A DNA stretch of 64,000 nt from the human T2T-CHM13v2.0 reference genome, Homo sapiens. How positions within the stretch are numbered: the stretch's first letter is position 1; each line of letters begins with the position of its first letter. A model generated the notes under the pieces. It did no database searches, was not told the origin of the DNA, and saw nothing but the letters and a program-made list of their open reading frames with translations. The position numbers and the translations under genes were made by a program. Of this stretch, positions 40,282 to 50,785 are shown in pieces. The DNA is taken from NCBI RefSeq assembly GCF_009914755.1, contig NC_060934.1, one strand, 5' to 3'.

Positions 40282-44695
<4,414 letters not shown>

Positions 44696-47600
44696 CAGAA
44701 GCTTTAAGAGATTTTTAAATTCATTTTTACTTTTTTTCTCCTTCATCTACCCAAGATTGTACTCCGTGAGGGGGTTTTTGAAGTAAATTTCATGACAGCA
44801 CATTATTCAGCAGTGAGTTTCGGACCATATGTTCCCATTTTTACAACTTTTGTGCACCCTAGGGTGTTTTCCCCTAGGAAATTGTTGTTATATTTCACAC
44901 ATGCAAAAATAAACGCCAGGTGATGTGAGGGGCACCCACACCCACCTTCCCGCTGAGAAATGCAGGCCGCCCCCAAGGGGAGCCCTCATCCTGCAGGTTT
45001 CCTCCCGAGTCCTGGAATTCTAAAATGCGCTCCTTGCACCTGGGACTCTTCCTGCCAGCTTCACTGGGGAAAGCTCCTCTCCACCTCCCCTGCTCCCTCC
45101 GGGCCTCTCACGGCTCCCCCCGCCCCTCCTCTGCCCCAGGGCCTGTGCTCCTACATCCCGGCAAGCCGCAGCCCCGACACTTCCTCCTAATTTCCTGACA
45201 CTCCCCACTCCCTGGCGGGACGTTTTACTCCTTGCTCTCCTTCCCACTGGAGGGCGCGCGCTTTCTAGCTGGCCGCGTGGGCAGGCAGAGGACCAGGTGC
45301 AGGCGGGCGCCAGAGGACAGAAGGTGGAAGTCAAGCGGTGTCTTGGCCGTCCAAGGTCCCAGCACAGGCACTCAGAACCCCTGAGCCCAGGGAGCTCCCA
45401 AGGGTCTCACTCTCCTCTGCGGTCTTTGCTGGCCGAGGGCAAGGCCGGGTGAGGACGGAGAGAAGCAGCTCCTCCCCACCACACACCCAGAGCTGGGAGG
45501 GGCCAGGATTCAGCACCCTCTAGGGGTGGGCACGGCAGACGCGGTGGGGACCTGGCGCTGAGGTCCTGGCTCCCACTCCAGCGTGGCCTGGTGGCTTCTC
45601 CCCGGTTGGGGTACCCTGCACAGGGGTTGTGGTGCCTCCCAAGGGCCAGCCCCGCCCTGACAACCTCTCCTCCAGCCAGGATGGGGTCCATACTCCATCG
45701 AGAGGGTTCCTGGCTTCAACACCCTCCACCAGCCTCATGCCACCAGGGCCCTGGTCATCCTGGGGACCCTGCAGAGGGCCTCCTGGGCCTGTCTTCCGGC
45801 GGGTGAGCCGGCCCTGCCTGTGGGTGTCTGGGGTGTGGCCTCCAGGCACCAAGCACCCGCTGGCTCCTGATACCTGCCTTTCTGGCTGTGGTGTGTCTCT
45901 GGCCTGGCGCCTGTTTCTGAGTCCCTGGAGAGAGCAGGTTCCTCGCAGGTGGCAGGCAGCCCTGTTTGTGTGTGCATGAGCCTGTGGGGGCACCTGGAGC
46001 TGAGCGGTGGCCTGTGCTGTCACCACCCGGGGTGGCAGGGCAGGGTCTGGCACTGCCACAGCTCCTGACAGAAGCTGCCTAGGCCTGGGTTGGCTCGGGC
46101 TTCTCGGCCAGGCCCTTCCCCAGCACTTCCTGCCCAGCCCCAGCTGCAGGACCTGCTGAAATCTGTGCTGTGGGAGCCCTGTCTCTGAGGGGTCACTGCA
46201 GTGACTCCAGAAAACCTGAGTCTCCTGATTCCAGGAGCACCGCTTGCAGCCTGCCACGTGCATGACCCAGCATGACCCGGACTCCTGAGCCAGGACCGAG
46301 TCCCCCTGACAGCGGGGAAGCGGCGGACCCTGGGGGCTGGCACCCGCCGTGGCCCTCCCCAGCCCACTGTGGCACTGAGGGGCTGCTCCCCTGGGAATGG
46401 CCCCTTCCTAGAGGCAGCCCTGGCCTGGCTTCGAGAGGGGCTCTGGGAACAGGCGGCCCCGGGTAGCTGACCACACCTGACCAGGCCAGTCTTTGGGAAG
46501 CCGCCCTCTCAGCCTATGCACTGCAGGGACACTGGGTGGAGAGGGCTGTGCCTCAGTGCCCCTGCAGGGCGGTGCAGCAGCTGGCCGTGCAGGGGGAGGG
46601 GGCCTTGCCTTCTGGCTCAGGGAGGAAGCGGCTGCTCTCAGCTGCCTTCGCCTCGCCTCCTGAGGCGGCTTTGGAACCCTCCTGAGGTTTGTGGCCCTGA
46701 AGTTCCTTCCTGAGACCCCGCAGGGGACTAAGCCCTCGGCCCAGGGGCACCGGGGAGGGCAGAACCTCAAGACAGGGGCCCGGGACACAGGACAGAGTGT
46801 GTGGGGCAGGTGTGCAGGCTGTGCCCAAGGGGCCTCGGGGTTGAAGGGGCTCTTGGAGATGATGTCGACATCGCGGTTCCTGAGCGGGTGCCCAGATCTG
46901 GATGAGCTGTTTTCTGGAGAAAGCAGGAAAGTGACGTCATTTTGTGGCTTCAGATTGACCGCAGCCTGGCAGAGAGGGAGTGGTGGCAGGAAGTGAGGCT
47001 GCTGGCTTCCCAGTCACGGCCTCCATGATCCACGTGTGGCAGCATGAATCACAGCTGCATCATGACACCCAGAGGGAAAGCAGCTCAAGCTGCAGTTTAA
47101 GGCGACTCCACGGAGGGCCCTGGCTTAGTTGTTGCACAGCATGGGGTCAGATGGATGCCCTGGAAGAGTCAGCAGAGACCCCCTGGCCTTTGGAGTTTGT
47201 CTCTGAGCGAGAGACACTGTTGGGATGACCGGCGAGTGGCGTTGGGTCCACATGGGGGCCCTGGTCCGGCTGAGTCTACTGAGCACAGGCCTGCCCCTTG
47301 CCACCCAGCTCTGCCCATATGTGGCCGTCATTCCTGGGCTTCACCTGGGAAACGTCCTTTGAGGCAGCTCAGCTTTTCCACAGTGGGTCACGTTGTTTGC
47401 TGCTGGAGACTGGCTGAGTCTGTGCTTCCAGTATAGGAAGGTTTAGGAGGCAGTCAGCAGGCCTCTCCTGTGGCCACTGTGCCCGAGGCAGGTGCCTGGG
47501 GTGAGAGGGATTCTTCCGGATGTGGCCGTGCACTGCCCAGCAGGCCTGGAGTGAACGTCTGTGTGGAGTCCGGGCTCCCATCCAGCATCCCTTAAGGGTC

Positions 47601-47744
47601 CTGATGGCTGGAGCTGGGGGAGGCAGGTATGGCAAGGGGCTTCCTGCACGCAGGAAAACTGGAGACCCCTGGTGAAAGAGCCAGGTGTGCACCTGCAGAG
47701 CCAGGCATGGGTCCACAGAGCCTGTCAAGCCTGGTTTACACCAC

Positions 47745-48297
47745 AGAGCTGGGTATGCGCTGAGAACCAGGTGTGCACGGAGAGCCAGGTGTACACTGCA
47801 GAGCCGCGTGTGCACTGAGAGCAGGTGTGCGCTGAGAACCAGGTGTGCAGAGAGAGCCAGGTGTGCACGGAGAATCAGGTCTGCAGAGAGAGCCAGGTGT
47901 GCACTGAGAACCAGGTGTGCACGGAGAATCAGGTCTGCAGAGAGAGCCAGGTGTGCACTGAGAACCAAGTGTGCAGAGTCAGGTGTGCGCTGCAGAGCCG
48001 GGTGTGCACTGAGAACCAGCTGTGCAGAGAGAGTCAGGTGTGCGCTGCAGAGCCGGGTGTGCACTGAGAACCAGGTGTGCAGAGAGAGTCAGGTGTGCGC
48101 TGCAGAGCCGGGTGTGCACTGAGAACCAGGTGTGCAGAGAGAGTCAGGTGTGCGCTGCAGAGCCGGGTGTGCACTGAGTCAGGTGTGCAGAGAGTCAGGT
48201 GTACACTGCAGAGCCGCGTGTGCACTGAGAGCAGGTGTGCATGGAGAGCCAGGTGTCTGTTGAGAACCAGGTGTGTGCAGAGAGCCAGGTGTGCACT
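47745..48297. repeat. Minisatellite of about 18-bp subunits (GAGAACCAGGTGTGCA) with a 55-bp higher-order unit
   Basis: Directly visible. It produces the TENQVC/RESQVC artefact ORFs. Confidence 0.9.
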
Positions 48298-48613
48298 GCA
48301 TATCTAAGTGCTCATGTGGAGTCTTGGGCTGGGCAGGTGCTGCCCAGGACCCTGGCTCTCTGGCTGTCTTCTGTGCATTTGGGGATGGGAGAAGGGGCTC
48401 GGCTCTGGCTGGAGGGCAGCCAGGCAGACTTGCCAGCCAGCACCGCCAGGTGATAAGAGCTGGTGCCCACAGGTACTCAGCAAATGTCTGCATTTTGGGG
48501 AGGGCTGGAGAAAATGAAGGCCATGCCCTCTCTGCAAGGCTCCGCACAGGCCCTGTTTCCCAGTCCTTCAGCCACAGGGTGTCCCGGCAACAAGGGTGCC
48601 AGGTCGCCTGCAC

Positions 48614-49551
48614 CCTGACTGTCTCCTGCGGAAAGGACAGCGCCTGCTCCTTGTCCTCCAGTAGCTGCTGGACTCCGGGGTCTGGGTGCTCTGGCGCCCG
48701 GCGGCTGGGTCCCCACTACAAGGTAGACACCAGCCTTGAATCCAACTGTCGAGGAAATGGGGTGGGCGGCGGAGGCTGGGGAGATCGGGAGGAAGGGAGG
48801 TATGGGCGGTTGGAGGGCTTGAGAGACAGGAACCCACCCTCTGCAAGTGCAGTGGCCTGTCCCCTCCAGAACGCTCTCATTCTTCGTGCTGAAGGGAGCT
48901 GGGGGCGTGGCAGGCCTGCGAGACGAATGGGCGCTATCAGCTCAGGGCTCTGCCTCGGAGGAGCCACCCGGAGGCAGCACCCATGGGTGTGGGGGCTTGG
49001 CCACAGGGGACGTCAGGCCTCCTCGGTGCAGCACCAGATGCGTCTAACAGCCTCCGCCCCGTGGGCGCCCACTCAGACTTGCTGCTCAGGTGCCTAGAGC
49101 AGAAGCCACCTCCTCAGAGGCCAGCGCGCCAGCCTGGCACCACGGGGACGCTCCCAGGGGGTGCCCAGAGGGAACGTGCGCATCGGGCGGGGTACTGCGG
49201 CGCGTGTGGGCCGTGAGCCCCGCCCTGTAGTCGGACACTGGAGTCCCGGATCCTACAGATCTGAAAGGCTGAGTCGGATGCAGCAAAGGCGAAGCGGGGT
49301 TCGCAGCCCCAGACTCTTGGGGGGGGGGGGGGGTCAGCGAGCAACCGGGAGGGGCGCCGCGGGCCATTCGCCGCTTCTCCTGGGCCGAGGGCGCAGGCCC
49401 CTGCCGCGGGGGCCCCTCGGACTCCACGACTTCGCGGACGCGCGCCCACCGCCATAGCTGAGGTCCCGGGCCAGGCGGCGCGTGGGTGGCTGAGCGGGAG
49501 CGCGTCCAGCCAGGCGTGGAGGCCGCGCGGGGCCGGGGTCGAGCCCAGCAT
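48614..49551 (-). pseudogene. Decayed SPEF1-like (sperm flagellar 1-like, CH domain plus coiled coil) unprocessed pseudogene
   Basis: Exon 1 49551-49450: MLGSTPAPRGLHAWLDALPLSH(P)-frameshift-TRRLARDLSYG|GT, compared with SPEF1 LYLWVDNIPLSRPKRNLSRDFSDG. Exon 48745-48614: ..TAG..DPGVQQLLEDKEQALSFPQETVR|GT, compared with SPEF1 AEKEQELLASQETVQ. SPEF1 sequence is from memory. Confidence 0.8.
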
Positions 49552-49900
49552 GGCGGGGGGGGTGCGGGGCAGTGGCCCGGACAAGGGCATGGGGCCGGAA
49601 GAGGCGGGGCCGTTGCCGGGAGACGAGACGGAATGGGCGGGGCGCGGGCGGGGCCGTTGCCGGGAGACGAGACGGAATGGGCGGGGCGCGGGCGGGGCCG
49701 TTGCCGGGAGACGAGACGGAATGGGCGGGGCGCGGGCGGGGCCGTTGCCGGGAGACGGGGCGGGGGCGGGGCCGGGCCATTGCCCGGAGACGGGGCGGGG
49801 CGGGGGTAGCGCGGGCTCCTCCGTGCATCGCGGCGAAGTCTTCTTGGGCGTGGGTTCCTGGATCGGATCGTCTGCCCGCGGGAGGGGCGGGACTGCTTAG
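49130..49900 (-). promoter_or_regulatory. CpG island with a 44-bp tandem repeat carrying X-box-like GTTGCCGGGAGAC and GC boxes
   Basis: GTTGCCGGGAGAC at 49612, 49656, 49700, 49744, with a degenerate copy at 49779. GGGCGGGG lies between them. Confidence 0.75.
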
Positions 49901-50064
49901 TTACGCTGGGGAGGGCCTGAGAAATCCAGGGAGAAAAGAAGGTGGCTTGACCTCATCTATTCGCAGTCTGCATTTTACCAAGCGCCGACCCTTGTATCTC
50001 GTGAACTGAAGCCCTCCATCCTTCCCCGCTGATCTAACAAGAATCTACAGAACTCGGTCAATAA

Positions 50065-50070
50065 TTTATT
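50065..50070 (-). terminator. ADAM8 poly(A) signal AATAAA
   Basis: TTTATT on the plus strand, about 715 nt past the stop, in the only AT-rich patch nearby. Confidence 0.85.
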
Positions 50071-50785
50071 AGTAAAATATACATTTCTCATTATTAAAGA
50101 ATAAAAGCTTTCAGCCCTGCTGAACACACATCTGAGGTCTCAAGAAAACCAGACAAGATAGCTGACTCTCCCACATAGCCCTTTCCATAAAGGCGATTCC
50201 TAAGCTTAAACACACACAAAGCTGGGGCTGTCCCTCTTGAATCCCATGGGAAACAGGCCCCAAGATCAGGGGACCTGGAGTCGGGAGCTTGGGGTGCAGT
50301 CTGCTCACTGACACCCTCTCGAAGAGCACGCAGGGGAACCTGGTCCTGGGATGGAGTCTTTCTGGGGATGCCCCACGTCTGTGCTGCCTGGAACCGGGTG
50401 CCCAGGGCAGCCGGCTCAGCAGGCCCCAGAGCAGGGGCAGGTGTGGCTGGGAGGGGCTGTATATGTGGCCTCCTGAACACAGCGGGAGACCAGCGGCCAC
50501 CTGGAGACACGTACACACACACGCACCCGCAAGCACACAGCTCATCCCAGCCTGGTGCCTGCAGACAGCTGGGGCTACACGTGGCCAAGGCGGGGAGAAG
50601 GAATTGGCTGAGGGCGTGGACAGCAGGAGCCTCTCAGGTAGATGCATTACTGAGGTTAGAACAGCAGCTGAGCCTGCAAAGTCAGGGTCTAGGGCTGAGC
50701 GGCACTAGCTGGACCGTGGAACGCTGGAACGCATGGCTTCTCTGCCGCAACTTCTCCAAATTTCCACACAGGCGCAGGTGCCCCC

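What the first reader, a model, noticed from the sequence alone, without database searches (positions are those of the whole stretch)
48614..49551. Hidden SPEF1-like ciliary/flagellar gene, inactivated in place (candidate unitary pseudogene)
Seen: a good-Kozak ATG (CCCGCCATGC, 49551, minus strand) opens MLGSTPAPRGLHAWLDALPLSH. Adding one base at about 49485 continues PTRRLARDLSYG to a phase-1 GT donor at 49449. A second AG/GT-bounded exon (48745-48614) encodes QQLLEDKEQALSFPQETVR behind an in-frame TAG (48718-48716). Knowledge (from memory): these match the N-terminal CH domain (WVDNIPLSRPKRNLSRDFSDG) and C-terminal coiled coil (EKEQELLASQETVQ) of SPEF1/CLAMP, a microtubule-bundling ciliary protein. 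I also recall a Spef1-like gene beside Adam8 in mouse. Inference: an intron-containing gene was lost in our lineage by frameshift, nonsense change, SDG-to-SYG and apparent loss of the remaining CH exons, which I cannot find in the 700 bp between. The ORF track splits it over different frames and misses it.
Basis: partly seen in the sequence, partly recalled or inferred. Interest (0 to 1): 0.85.

Follow-up and report, generated by a model that had tools for sequence, protein, structure and literature searches.

The report
Dead SPEF1-like gene beside ADAM8
Just downstream of human ADAM8 lie two decayed exons of a second SPEF1-type cilia gene that no longer encodes a protein, so this is an ordinary but apparently unannotated gene relic.

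Summary

**Homology.** A profile built from SPEF1-family proteins, aligned with tolerance for frameshifts, scores 66.8 at 49551-49451 (minus strand). The next best score in the window is 32.3, and the permutation null is 32.1±3.1 (0 of 600 reach it). A second profile scores 39.1 at 48715-48614, against a next best of 24.5 and a null of 23.2±2.1 (0 of 600).

**Gene structure.** Both matches end exactly at SPEF1 exon ends and are followed by GT. The intron after exon 1 has the same phase 1 as in SPEF1.

**Decay.**
- Exon 1 carries a 1-nt deletion and substitutions at residues that are otherwise invariant.
- The exons for three quarters of the CH domain and the last coiled-coil exon cannot be found.

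So this is an unprocessed pseudogene relic, not a gene.

**New evidence.** An intronless SPEF1-family fragment on chr4 has a 5' part that matches this relic's exon 1 but not SPEF1's. It is probably an old retrocopy of the chr10 gene.

**Not shown.**
- Orthology to mouse Spef1l.
- The date of the loss.
- Whether the TAG is a lesion; it may simply be the splice acceptor.

Interest is modest.

The parts
49450..49551 (-). Relic of coding exon 1 of a SPEF1-like gene. It holds the start codon, a variable N-terminus and the first 24 of 96 positions of the CH_2 domain (motif W.D..PLS.P...ARD.S.G).
   Evidence: The family profile with frameshift-tolerant alignment scores 66.8, ending at 49451. The next best score in the window is 32.3 and the null is 32.1±3.1, with 0 of 600 reaching the observed score. 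With human SPEF1 exon 1 alone the score is 63 against a null of 37.4±3.1, 0 of 300. SPEF1 exon 1 covers CH_2 positions 1-24.
49478..49488 (-). Site of a 1-nt deletion (frameshift) in a C/G-rich run. It most likely lies in the Pro codon at 49485-49484.
   Evidence: Frame A must be left for the frame one base back to keep the family motif. An ungapped DNA alignment to SPEF1 exon 1 runs from that Pro codon to the donor, with 29 of 40 bases matching.
49448..49449 (-). GT donor after exon 1, phase 1.
   Evidence: The window reads GGC G|gtgggc and SPEF1 reads GGA G|gtgtgt. SPEF1 exon 2 begins with TC, which completes the split Val codon.
48716..49447 (-). About 730 bp of spacer where the exons for the rest of the CH domain and the linker (SPEF1 exons 2-5) should lie. 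Nothing recognisable is left.
   Evidence: Profiles for exons 2 and 3 score at null level on the minus strand of 44000-49450: 25.7 against a null of 25.4±3.2, and 27.5 against 22.6±2.6, the latter inside the minisatellite and out of order. Probes taken from the chr4 copy's exons 2-3 also find nothing. Exons 4-5 were sought only with the human SPEF1 exon 4 and 5 peptides, which scored at null level and not in this spacer.
48614..48715 (-). Relic of the penultimate coding exon (SPEF1 exon 6), with the coiled-coil core LLEDKEQALSFPQETVR.
   Evidence: The family profile scores 39.1, ending at 48614. The next best score in the window is 24.5 and the null is 23.2±2.1, 0 of 600. The DNA alignment to SPEF1 exon 6 scores 30 against 17.5±2.3, 0 of 500.
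48716..48718 (-). TAG directly before the W codon. It is either an in-frame stop, if the exon starts at 48745, or simply the acceptor AG.
   Evidence: The SPEF1 acceptor is cag|C TGG and the window reads tag|TGG. This is not resolved.
48612..48613 (-). GT donor after the penultimate exon, at the same codon as in SPEF1 (after ETVQ in SPEF1, ETVR here).
49300..49900 (.). CpG island over exon 1 and its upstream flank. It includes 3.5 perfect copies of a 44-bp tandem repeat at 49603-49757 that carries GC boxes.
   Evidence: GC is 0.78 and CpG observed/expected is 0.99 over 601 bp, with 11 GGGCGG/CCGCCC motifs in 49560-49900. The tandem-repeat finder reports 100% matches. The hub table lists a RefSeq 'silencer' at 49305-49638.
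47745..48298 (.). Minisatellite with periods of 18, 36 and 55 bp and about 30 copies of the 18-mer. It lies roughly 320-870 bp downstream of the last relic exon, where the final coding exon would be expected.
   Evidence: for the repeat. No exon 7 signal appears anywhere in 44000-49450 or in the read-through frame.

Best explanation
This is the in-place wreck of an intron-containing paralog of SPEF1 (CLAMP), the ciliary microtubule-binding protein built from an N-terminal CH_2 domain and a C-terminal coiled coil. It lies about 500 bp downstream of the 3' end of ADAM8, on the same strand.

Two exons are still recognisable:
- exon 1, with the start codon and the first quarter of the CH domain;
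- the penultimate exon, with the core of the coiled coil.

Both keep SPEF1's exon boundaries and GT donors.

The gene is dead. Exon 1 has a 1-nt deletion and substitutions at residues that do not vary in the family. The exons for the remaining three quarters of the CH domain and the linker are gone from the ~730 bp between the two relics. The last coiled-coil exon cannot be found either. No protein of this family can be made from the locus.

It is best called an unprocessed, probably unitary, pseudogene. I infer that it is the human remnant of the gene that mouse keeps as Spef1l.

**Shown:** homology, shared intron positions, the frameshift, the missing exons, and uniqueness of the DNA in the genome.

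**Inferred:** the paralog was once functional and spliced (supported by a probable retrocopy on chr4), orthology to mouse Spef1l, and an old date for the loss.
For: **1. Family profiles**
- The profiles were built from proteins found with human SPEF1 exon 3, so they are independent of the window.
- I chose 19 of the 73 proteins for exon 1 and 15 of 73 for exon 6, picking those with an intact N- or C-terminus in the alignment.
- Exon 1 scores 66.8 at 49451 (next best 32.3); 0 of 600 column permutations reach it. The Gumbel P is about 2.6e-7 per 64-kb window.
- Exon 6 scores 39.1 at 48614 (next best 24.5); 0 of 600. P is about 3.9e-5 per window, and about 1.6e-6 for the 3 kb downstream on the same strand.
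- Without the bird sequences the scores are still 62.6 and 35.9, with 0 of 150 each.

**2. Single proteins**
- Human SPEF1 exon 1 alone scores 63 against a null of 37.4±3.1, 0 of 300.
- tblastn of all 73 family proteins against the whole window gives its best hit at 49545-49480: 64% identity over 22 aa, E 5e-4.

**3. Gene structure**
- Both alignments end on the last residue of the SPEF1 exon and are followed by GT.
- Intron 1 is phase 1 in both genes.

**4. DNA-level alignments to SPEF1 exons 1 and 6**
- Each scores 30 against a null of 17.5±2.4, 0 of 500.

**5. Decay**
- In the non-forced columns of the 136 of 184 family proteins that carry the N-terminal motif, the window has H where 135 have Y, H where 136 have R, L where 136 have F, and Y where 136 have D.
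- In the coiled coil it has F, P and R at positions where 0 of 97 family members do.

**6. Missing exons**
- Exons 2, 3 and 7 are not detectable.
- Pfam CH_2 finds nothing in 9 minus-strand frames, nor at chr10 in the genome-wide scan.

**7. Not a repeat**
- The 1-kb stretch is single-copy in the assembly.

**8. Probable retrocopy on chr4 (L004)**
- Exon-2 and exon-3 homology abut there without an intron: 50.6 and 63.2 against nulls of 25.9±3.1 and 23.4±2.7.
- Its 5' part aligns with window 49581-49467: 83 matches in 105 ungapped columns, 0 of 1000 shuffles reaching the score.
- That match is the best blastn hit in the window, E 1.4e-4 against 0.053 for the next.
- Human SPEF1 exon 1 does not align there: 9.5 against a null of 9.9.
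Against: - A full-length family HMM run with HMMER against 2352 stop-to-stop pieces of the window puts the two relic pieces only at ranks 2 and 6, with E 2.3 and 6.1. That is not significant.
- With human SPEF1 exon 6 alone the relic scores 42, below the window's best chance hit of 49. The exon 6 case therefore rests on the family profile.
- Genome-wide searches with SPEF1 exons 1 and 6 returned only SPEF1 itself.
- The genome-wide significance is an extrapolation from Gumbel fits to permutations within one window.
- No mammalian SPEF1-like protein was retrieved. Two word-index searches with the relic peptides found nothing, and the HMMER search found only SPEF1-type proteins.
- The sequences I first took for a SPEF1-like clade are avian SPEF1 by the names their sources give them. 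Orthology to mouse Spef1l, synteny and the date of loss are therefore untested.
- The relic resembles bird SPEF1 more than human SPEF1: combined scores up to 148 against 90-109. This may only reflect shared GC-rich composition.
- The chr4-chr10 link rests on about 70-115 nt of GC-rich DNA.
Confidence: 0.85

Rival explanations
1. Chance resemblance. Two short peptides in GC-rich, CpG-island DNA happen to look like SPEF1.
For: - The segments are short (about 25 and 20 informative residues) and the DNA is 65-80% GC.
- HMMER with a full-length family model is not significant.
- Pfam finds nothing.
- SPEF1 exon 6 alone does not beat the window noise.
Against: - Family-profile scores lie 11 and 7.5 null standard deviations above the permutation null, and the runner-up hits sit at null level.
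- The two hits are on the same strand, in the right order and 733 bp apart.
- Each ends exactly at a SPEF1 exon end followed by GT, and the intron phase is the same.
- DNA-level alignments are also significant.
- By extrapolation, the joint genome-wide expectation is about 1e-8.
Confidence: 0.02
2. A partial genomic duplicate of SPEF1 itself, copied from chr20 and then decayed. On this reading it is a duplicated pseudogene and not the remnant of a distinct, once-functional paralog with a living ortholog in other mammals.
For: - It keeps SPEF1's intron positions.
- No independent SPEF1-like protein from any mammal could be retrieved here.
- Only exons 1 and 6 are present, as a fragmentary copy might be.
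Against: - Identity to human SPEF1 is only about 52% in protein over the exon 1 motif (my count from the peptides printed).
- DNA identity is about 67-72% in the best-conserved stretches: 29 of 40 in exon 1, and my hand count of 33 of 49 for exon 6 from the sequences.
- The relic scores higher against non-mammalian SPEF1 than against mammalian SPEF1.
- The N-terminus (MLGS...) is unrelated to SPEF1's (MASSVDEE...).
- The chr4 retrocopy matches this exon 1 and not SPEF1's, which implies that the chr10 gene was transcribed and spliced to CH-domain exons.
- A mouse gene named Spef1l exists. Its position next to Adam8 is recalled, not tested.
Confidence: 0.08
3. The locus is still in use, though not as a SPEF1-type protein. 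The preserved CpG island would act as a promoter of an unannotated transcript or as a regulatory element for neighbours such as ADAM8, and the coding relics would be incidental.
For: - The island keeps CpG observed/expected at 0.99 over 601 bp. Methylated dead DNA normally loses its CpGs.
- It holds 11 GC-box motifs and a perfect 44-bp repeat.
- The hub's RefSeq table lists a 'silencer' at 49305-49638.
Against: - No RefSeq gene or transcript is listed between MIR202 and ADAM8.
- No RNA family matches, and no Pfam domain matches on either strand.
- High CpG content can also be maintained by GC-biased gene conversion near a chromosome end.
- No expression or methylation data can be consulted here.
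- This reading is compatible with the pseudogene explanation and does not replace it.
Confidence: 0.25

Closest known systems
SPEF1 / CLAMP (human chr20p13): Pfam CH_2 (PF06294) plus a C-terminal coiled coil. PDB 2EE7 holds the CH domain; 9NTM and 9NW3 are the other 'sperm flagellar protein' entries listed.
   Same: - The exon 1 motif W.D..PLS.P.R.L.RD.S.G.
- The coiled-coil core (E/D)KEQ.L...QETV.
- A phase-1 intron after the ...DG codon and an intron after ETV(Q/R).
- SPEF1 exon 1 corresponds to CH_2 positions 1-24.
   Different: - Only 2 of 7 coding exons are recognisable.
- Exon 1 has a frameshift, and 4 residues that are invariant or nearly so in the family have changed in it.
- About 52% protein identity over the exon 1 motif.
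- A different N-terminus.
- No CH-domain core and no last exon, so no microtubule-binding protein can be made.
Mouse Spef1l (formerly 6430531B16Rik)
   Same: The name marks it as a SPEF1-like gene. One paper places it in the same >1 Mb contact region as Fuom in mouse ES cells (passage read). From memory, the human FUOM gene lies near ADAM8 at 10q26.3.
   Different: Nothing could be compared.
Unitary (unprocessed) pseudogenes of the human genome, as catalogued by Zhang et al. 2010 (PMC2864566)
   Same: Disabled in place, keeps its intron-exon structure, and has no intact copy of the same gene elsewhere in the genome.
   Different: It is far more eroded than typical catalogued cases, since most exons are missing. 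The main text of that paper does not mention it: 0 occurrences of 6 search terms. Its supplementary tables could not be opened.
Processed pseudogene on chr4 (G000:C4, about 60,032,650-60,033,090; L004 1345-1790)
   Same: It belongs to the same gene family, and its 5' part matches the chr10 exon 1 relic.
   Different: It is intronless, with exons 2 and 3 abutting. It forms a GC-rich island in AT-rich DNA. It keeps the CH-domain core that chr10 has lost but lacks the coiled-coil part.

Membership tests
SPEF1/CLAMP protein family | A complete CH_2 domain (PF06294, 96 positions) | tested here: not met
   Only the stretch equivalent to positions 1-24 is present (for SPEF1 exon 1). Pfam finds no CH_2 hit in 9 minus-strand frames. 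The genome-wide PF06294 scan lists 12 matches, none on chr10. The exon 2 and 3 profiles score at null level.
SPEF1/CLAMP protein family | The N-terminal motif L(Y).W.D..PLSRP(K/R)R..(A/S)RDFSDG | tested here: inconclusive
   It is clearly homologous (66.8 against a null of 32.1±3.1). But Y, R, F and D, which are present in 135-136 of the 136 family proteins that carry the motif, are H, H, L and Y here, and the frame is broken. The columns L, W, D, P, D and S were fixed by my search pattern and say nothing.
SPEF1/CLAMP protein family | The C-terminal coiled coil, encoded by the penultimate and last exons | tested here: not met
   The penultimate exon is present and homologous (39.1 against 23.2±2.1), but carries F, P and R where 0 of 97 family members do. 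The last exon is not detectable.
SPEF1/CLAMP gene lineage (homology of the locus, not of a product) | Intron positions and phases shared with SPEF1 | tested here: met
   A phase-1 GT donor follows the ...G codon of exon 1 in both genes, and a GT donor follows ETV(Q/R) in both.
Unprocessed / unitary pseudogene | Disabling lesions in a copy that keeps its introns | tested here: met
   A 1-nt deletion in exon 1. 733 bp of unrelated sequence between the two relic exons, flanked by a GT donor and an AG acceptor. Exons 2-3 and 7 are missing.
Unprocessed / unitary pseudogene | No intact copy of the same gene in the genome | tested here: met
   The CH_2 scan of the whole assembly finds matches over the cut-off only at chr4:179.53 Mb, chr20:3.81 Mb (SPEF1) and chr5:35.89 Mb. 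The relic's DNA is single-copy. The scan scores only the best candidates, so the check is not exhaustive.
Unprocessed / unitary pseudogene | A functional ortholog at the syntenic position in another species | not testable with these tools
   No other eukaryotic genome is held here. Mouse Spef1l is known only from one passage and from memory.
Processed pseudogene (as an alternative label for the chr10 relic) | Exons joined without introns | tested here: not met
   The relic exons are separated by 733 bp and each is followed by GT.

The most novel reading that the evidence does not exclude
Human ancestors had a second, germline-expressed SPEF1-type microtubule-binding gene next to ADAM8. Its mRNA left a retrocopy on chr4, which now preserves the CH-domain exons that the parent locus has since lost. 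After the gene died, its promoter CpG island was kept unmethylated and reused as a regulatory element (the RefSeq 'silencer') for neighbouring genes. Mouse would then have two SPEF1-type genes where humans have one, which bears on how mouse Spef1 phenotypes transfer to human ciliopathy.
Probability: 0.25. Interest if true: 0.5.

Novelty: new member of a known kind. Interest (0 to 1): 0.38.

Why it matters
- **An unlisted gene loss.** This adds a lost cilia-related gene that the RefSeq table for this window does not list and that none of my literature searches turned up. Searches for Spef1l, 6430531B16Rik, SPEF1-like and related names gave 2, 2 and 5 papers, none about a human relic.
- **Relevance to mouse models.** SPEF1 is needed for central-pair microtubules of motile cilia (abstracts listed). 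If mouse keeps a working paralog, Spef1l, that humans lack, redundancy could differ between the two species.
- **A rare pairing.** The chr10 relic and the chr4 retrocopy form a parent and fossil pair in which the retrocopy preserves exons the parent has lost.
- **What the finding does not do.** It reveals no new mechanism and no new kind of element.

Tried and rejected
- **Pfam.** Pfam on 9 minus-strand frames gave no CH_2 hit. Pfam on 5 plus-strand frames gave nothing relevant.
- **PDB.** A search with the 22-aa peptide gave one irrelevant hit at E 0.93. The 17-aa peptide was too short.
- **Whole-genome searches.** Searches with SPEF1 exons 1 and 6 found only SPEF1 itself. The tool's first-look stage is too coarse for this divergence.
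- **tblastn of the raw SPEF1 locus.** Running its frames against the window was swamped by Alu and low-complexity hits.
- **blastn of SPEF1 exons.** The relic exon 1 came out at E 0.015, among similar noise. A hit of exon 7 to 48348-48322 (24 of 28 bases, E 0.06) has no protein-level support, and I dropped it.
- **Full-length family HMM with HMMER.** The relic pieces ranked 2 and 6 but were not significant.
- **Word-index protein searches.** Searches with the relic exon 6 and exon 1 regions found no usable homolog. This says only that no very close annotated protein of 97-455 aa is in that database.
- **A mistaken clade.** I first read the 'LYRWLD.VPLSRPRRNIARD' group as a SPEF1-like clade. 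One search showed by source names that these are bird SPEF1 proteins, some fused to the C20orf27 homolog, so I withdrew that idea. The relic's greater likeness to them may reflect GC-rich composition.
- **Reading through the 48613 donor.** I tested whether exon 7 is fused in frame. The profile score falls from 41.2 to 24.5 and recovers to 38.2, a net loss, so this is rejected.
- **Other searches that gave nothing.** The language-model atlas search with the chr4 peptide gave no usable hit. Rfam found nothing in 44000-50100.
- **Other weak CH_2 hits.** At the chr6, chr12, chr22 and chr3 sites, exons 1, 3, 6 and 7 score at the null level measured on L004. The exon 2 profile reaches 34.6 on chr6 and 40.5 on chr22, with no null run for these loci. 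I did not pursue them.
- One script returned no answer and was rerun smaller. Earlier findings of this scan and supplementary files were closed.
Full report
**What is in the sequence**

The window is human chr10q26.3 (T2T).
- ATG lies at 49551, followed by MLGSTPAPRGLHAWLDALPLSH in one frame.
- PTRRLARDLSYG follows in the frame one base back, ending G|GT with the donor at 49449-49448.
- Further on come AG at 48747-48746, TAG at 48718-48716 and the W codon at 48715.
- ...QQLLEDKEQALSFPQETVR ends at 48614, followed by GT.

**Reference material**

The window's own assembly is held, so I located human SPEF1 in it with Pfam CH_2 and fetched the locus as L009. They also give the intron positions:
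- Exon 1 ends ...RDFSDG with a phase-1 donor (GGA G|gtgtgt; exon 2 starts with TC).
- Exon 6 ends ...SQETVQ|gt.
- Exon 7 encodes the rest of the coiled coil.

A HMMER search of 1.84 billion representative proteins with SPEF1 exon 3 returned 73 family proteins. A word-index search with one of them added named relatives, mostly bird and reptile 'sperm flagellar protein 1'. Pfam and PDB confirm the family: CH_2 plus CAMSAP_CH domains, and PDB entries 2EE7, 9NTM and 9NW3.

**Is the resemblance more than chance?**

Standard tools are too blunt for two short, frameshifted pieces.
- Pfam finds nothing.
- The genome-wide CH_2 scan does not report chr10.
- A full-length family HMM ranks the pieces 2nd and 6th of 2352, but at E 2.3 and 6.1.
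- Whole-genome searches with SPEF1 exons find only SPEF1.

I therefore wrote a frameshift-tolerant local alignment of protein or profile against DNA, and scanned both strands of the whole window.

With human SPEF1 exon 1 alone:
- The best score is 63, ending at 49451.
- The null from 300 shuffled queries is 37.4±3.1, with a maximum of 54.

With average-BLOSUM profiles of the family, using the 19 of 73 and 15 of 73 proteins that have intact termini in the alignment:
- Exon 1 scores 66.8 at 49451. The next best score anywhere is 32.3, the null is 32.1±3.1, and 0 of 600 permutations reach the observed score.
- Exon 6 scores 39.1 at 48614. The next best is 24.5, the null is 23.2±2.1, and 0 of 600 reach it.
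- Leaving out the bird sequences gives 62.6 and 35.9, with 0 of 150 each.

Gumbel fits give about 2.6e-7 per window for exon 1. For exon 6 within 3 kb downstream on the same strand they give about 1.6e-6. Over roughly 48,700 windows of this size, the joint expectation is of the order of 1e-8. This figure is an extrapolation.

Human SPEF1 exon 6 on its own does not beat the window noise (42 here against 49 elsewhere), so that exon's case rests on the family profile.

DNA-level local alignments to SPEF1 exons 1 and 6 are also significant: 30 against 17.5±2.4, 0 of 500 each.

**Gene structure**

- Both alignments end on the last residue of the corresponding SPEF1 exon, and both are followed by GT.
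- The exon 1 donor has the same phase 1.
- The two relics are in the right order on one strand, 733 bp apart.

The relic therefore comes from an intron-containing gene. A retrocopy would lack these junctions.

**State of decay**

An ungapped 40-nt alignment to SPEF1 (29 matches) runs from the Pro codon through the donor.

Among the 136 of 184 family proteins that carry the N-terminal motif, the window differs at four columns my search pattern did not fix: H for Y (135 of 136), H for R (136), L for F (136) and Y for D (136). In the coiled coil, F, P and R stand where 0 of 97 members have them.

The other exons could not be found:
- Profiles for exons 2, 3 and 7 score at null level across 44000-49450.
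- The human SPEF1 exon 4 and 5 peptides scored at null level window-wide.
- Reading through the 48613 donor adds nothing.
- A minisatellite (47745-48298) occupies the region where the last exon would be expected.

Whether the TAG at 48718 is a lesion is open. SPEF1's acceptor is cag|C TGG and the window reads tag|TGG, so the TAG may be the old acceptor with a one-base offset.

**An unexpected witness on chr4**

One weak CH_2 hit, at chr4:60.03 Mb (L004), turned out to be an intronless SPEF1-family fragment.
- Exon-2 and exon-3 homology abut directly: 50.6 ending at L004:1596 and 63.2 ending at 1686, against nulls of 25.9±3.1 and 23.4±2.7.
- It sits in a ~450-nt GC-rich island within 30-35% GC DNA, with an A-rich stretch at its 3' side.
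- Its 5' part aligns with the chr10 relic's exon 1 and 5' flank, window 49581-49467: 83 matches in 105 ungapped columns plus 18 gap columns, with 0 of 1000 shuffles reaching the score.
- That match is the best blastn hit of the chr4 fragment in the whole window: E 1.4e-4, against 0.053 for the next.
- Human SPEF1 exon 1 does not align there at all: 9.5 against a null of 9.9±1.6.

I read this as a processed pseudogene made from the chr10 gene's mRNA while that gene still spliced exon 1 to CH-domain exons. My confidence is about 0.7, because the link rests on 70-115 nt of GC-rich DNA. Probes from its exons 2-3 and its 3' part find nothing in the window, which fits real loss of those exons at chr10.

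**Surroundings**

- Exon 1 lies in a CpG island at 49300-49900: GC 0.78, CpG observed/expected 0.99.
- The island holds 3.5 perfect copies of a 44-bp GC-box repeat just upstream of the ATG. It overlaps the RefSeq 'silencer' of the hub table.
- No RNA family and no plus-strand protein domain offers another reading.
- The 1-kb stretch is single-copy in the genome.
- A reprolysin-type (ADAM) exon lies about 105 kb from SPEF1 on chr20, on the same strand. From memory, 10q25-q26 and 20p13 share many old paralog pairs, which would suit an ancient SPEF1 duplicate here. That is a recollection, not a test.

**What remains open**

No mammalian SPEF1-like protein could be retrieved. Orthology to mouse Spef1l, its position by Adam8 and the date of loss are therefore untested. 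The only support is one passage that places Spef1l and Fuom in one >1 Mb contact region.

The group I first took for a SPEF1-like clade is avian SPEF1. The relic's higher scores against birds than against mammal-type SPEF1 (148 against 90-109) may reflect GC-rich composition or retained ancestral residues.

On the literature:
- Searches for Spef1l, 6430531B16Rik and SPEF1-like names found nothing on a human relic.
- The main text of the 2010 unitary-pseudogene catalogue has none of 6 search terms.
- GENCODE could not be consulted.

**Verdict**

This is a real, heavily eroded, unprocessed pseudogene of a SPEF1 paralog. It is a new member of a known kind, of modest interest.

Noticed in passing
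L004 1345-1790 (G000:C4, about 60,032,650-60,033,090, + strand): An intronless, frameshifted SPEF1-family fragment with exon-1-like, exon-2 and exon-3 homology contiguous. It ends at a stop after ...PGAIEPVLYH and forms a GC-rich island in AT-rich DNA. Its 5' part matches the chr10 relic and not SPEF1, so it is probably a processed pseudogene of the lost chr10 gene.
   Followed up: yes
window 49603-49757: 3.5 perfectly identical copies of a 44-bp GC-box-bearing tandem repeat, directly upstream of the relic start codon and inside the CpG island. Perfect identity suggests recent expansion or a variable-number repeat.
   Followed up: partly
window 47745-48298: A minisatellite with nested periods of 18, 36 and 55 bp (about 30, 15 and 10 copies, 71-85% matches). 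It gives long open frames on both strands.
   Followed up: partly
L011 (G000:C22:34489000-34493000), minus strand, ending near L011:1850: The SPEF1-family exon 2 profile scores 40.5 here. That is above the null maximum of about 37 seen on a locus of similar size, with no support from any other exon. It could be an exon of another CH-type gene or chance.
   Followed up: no
G000:C20:3704664-3704852 (minus strand): A reprolysin-domain (ADAM-type) exon about 105 kb from SPEF1 on chr20. This echoes the ADAM8 and SPEF1-like adjacency on chr10 and is compatible with an old paralogous block.
   Followed up: no
P0005 (393 aa): One 'representative protein' in the public library is an artificial SPEF1-GFP fusion construct. 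It matches PDB 9NTM, named there as 'Sperm flagellar protein 1,G protein/GFP fusion protein'. The library therefore contains engineered sequences.
   Followed up: partly
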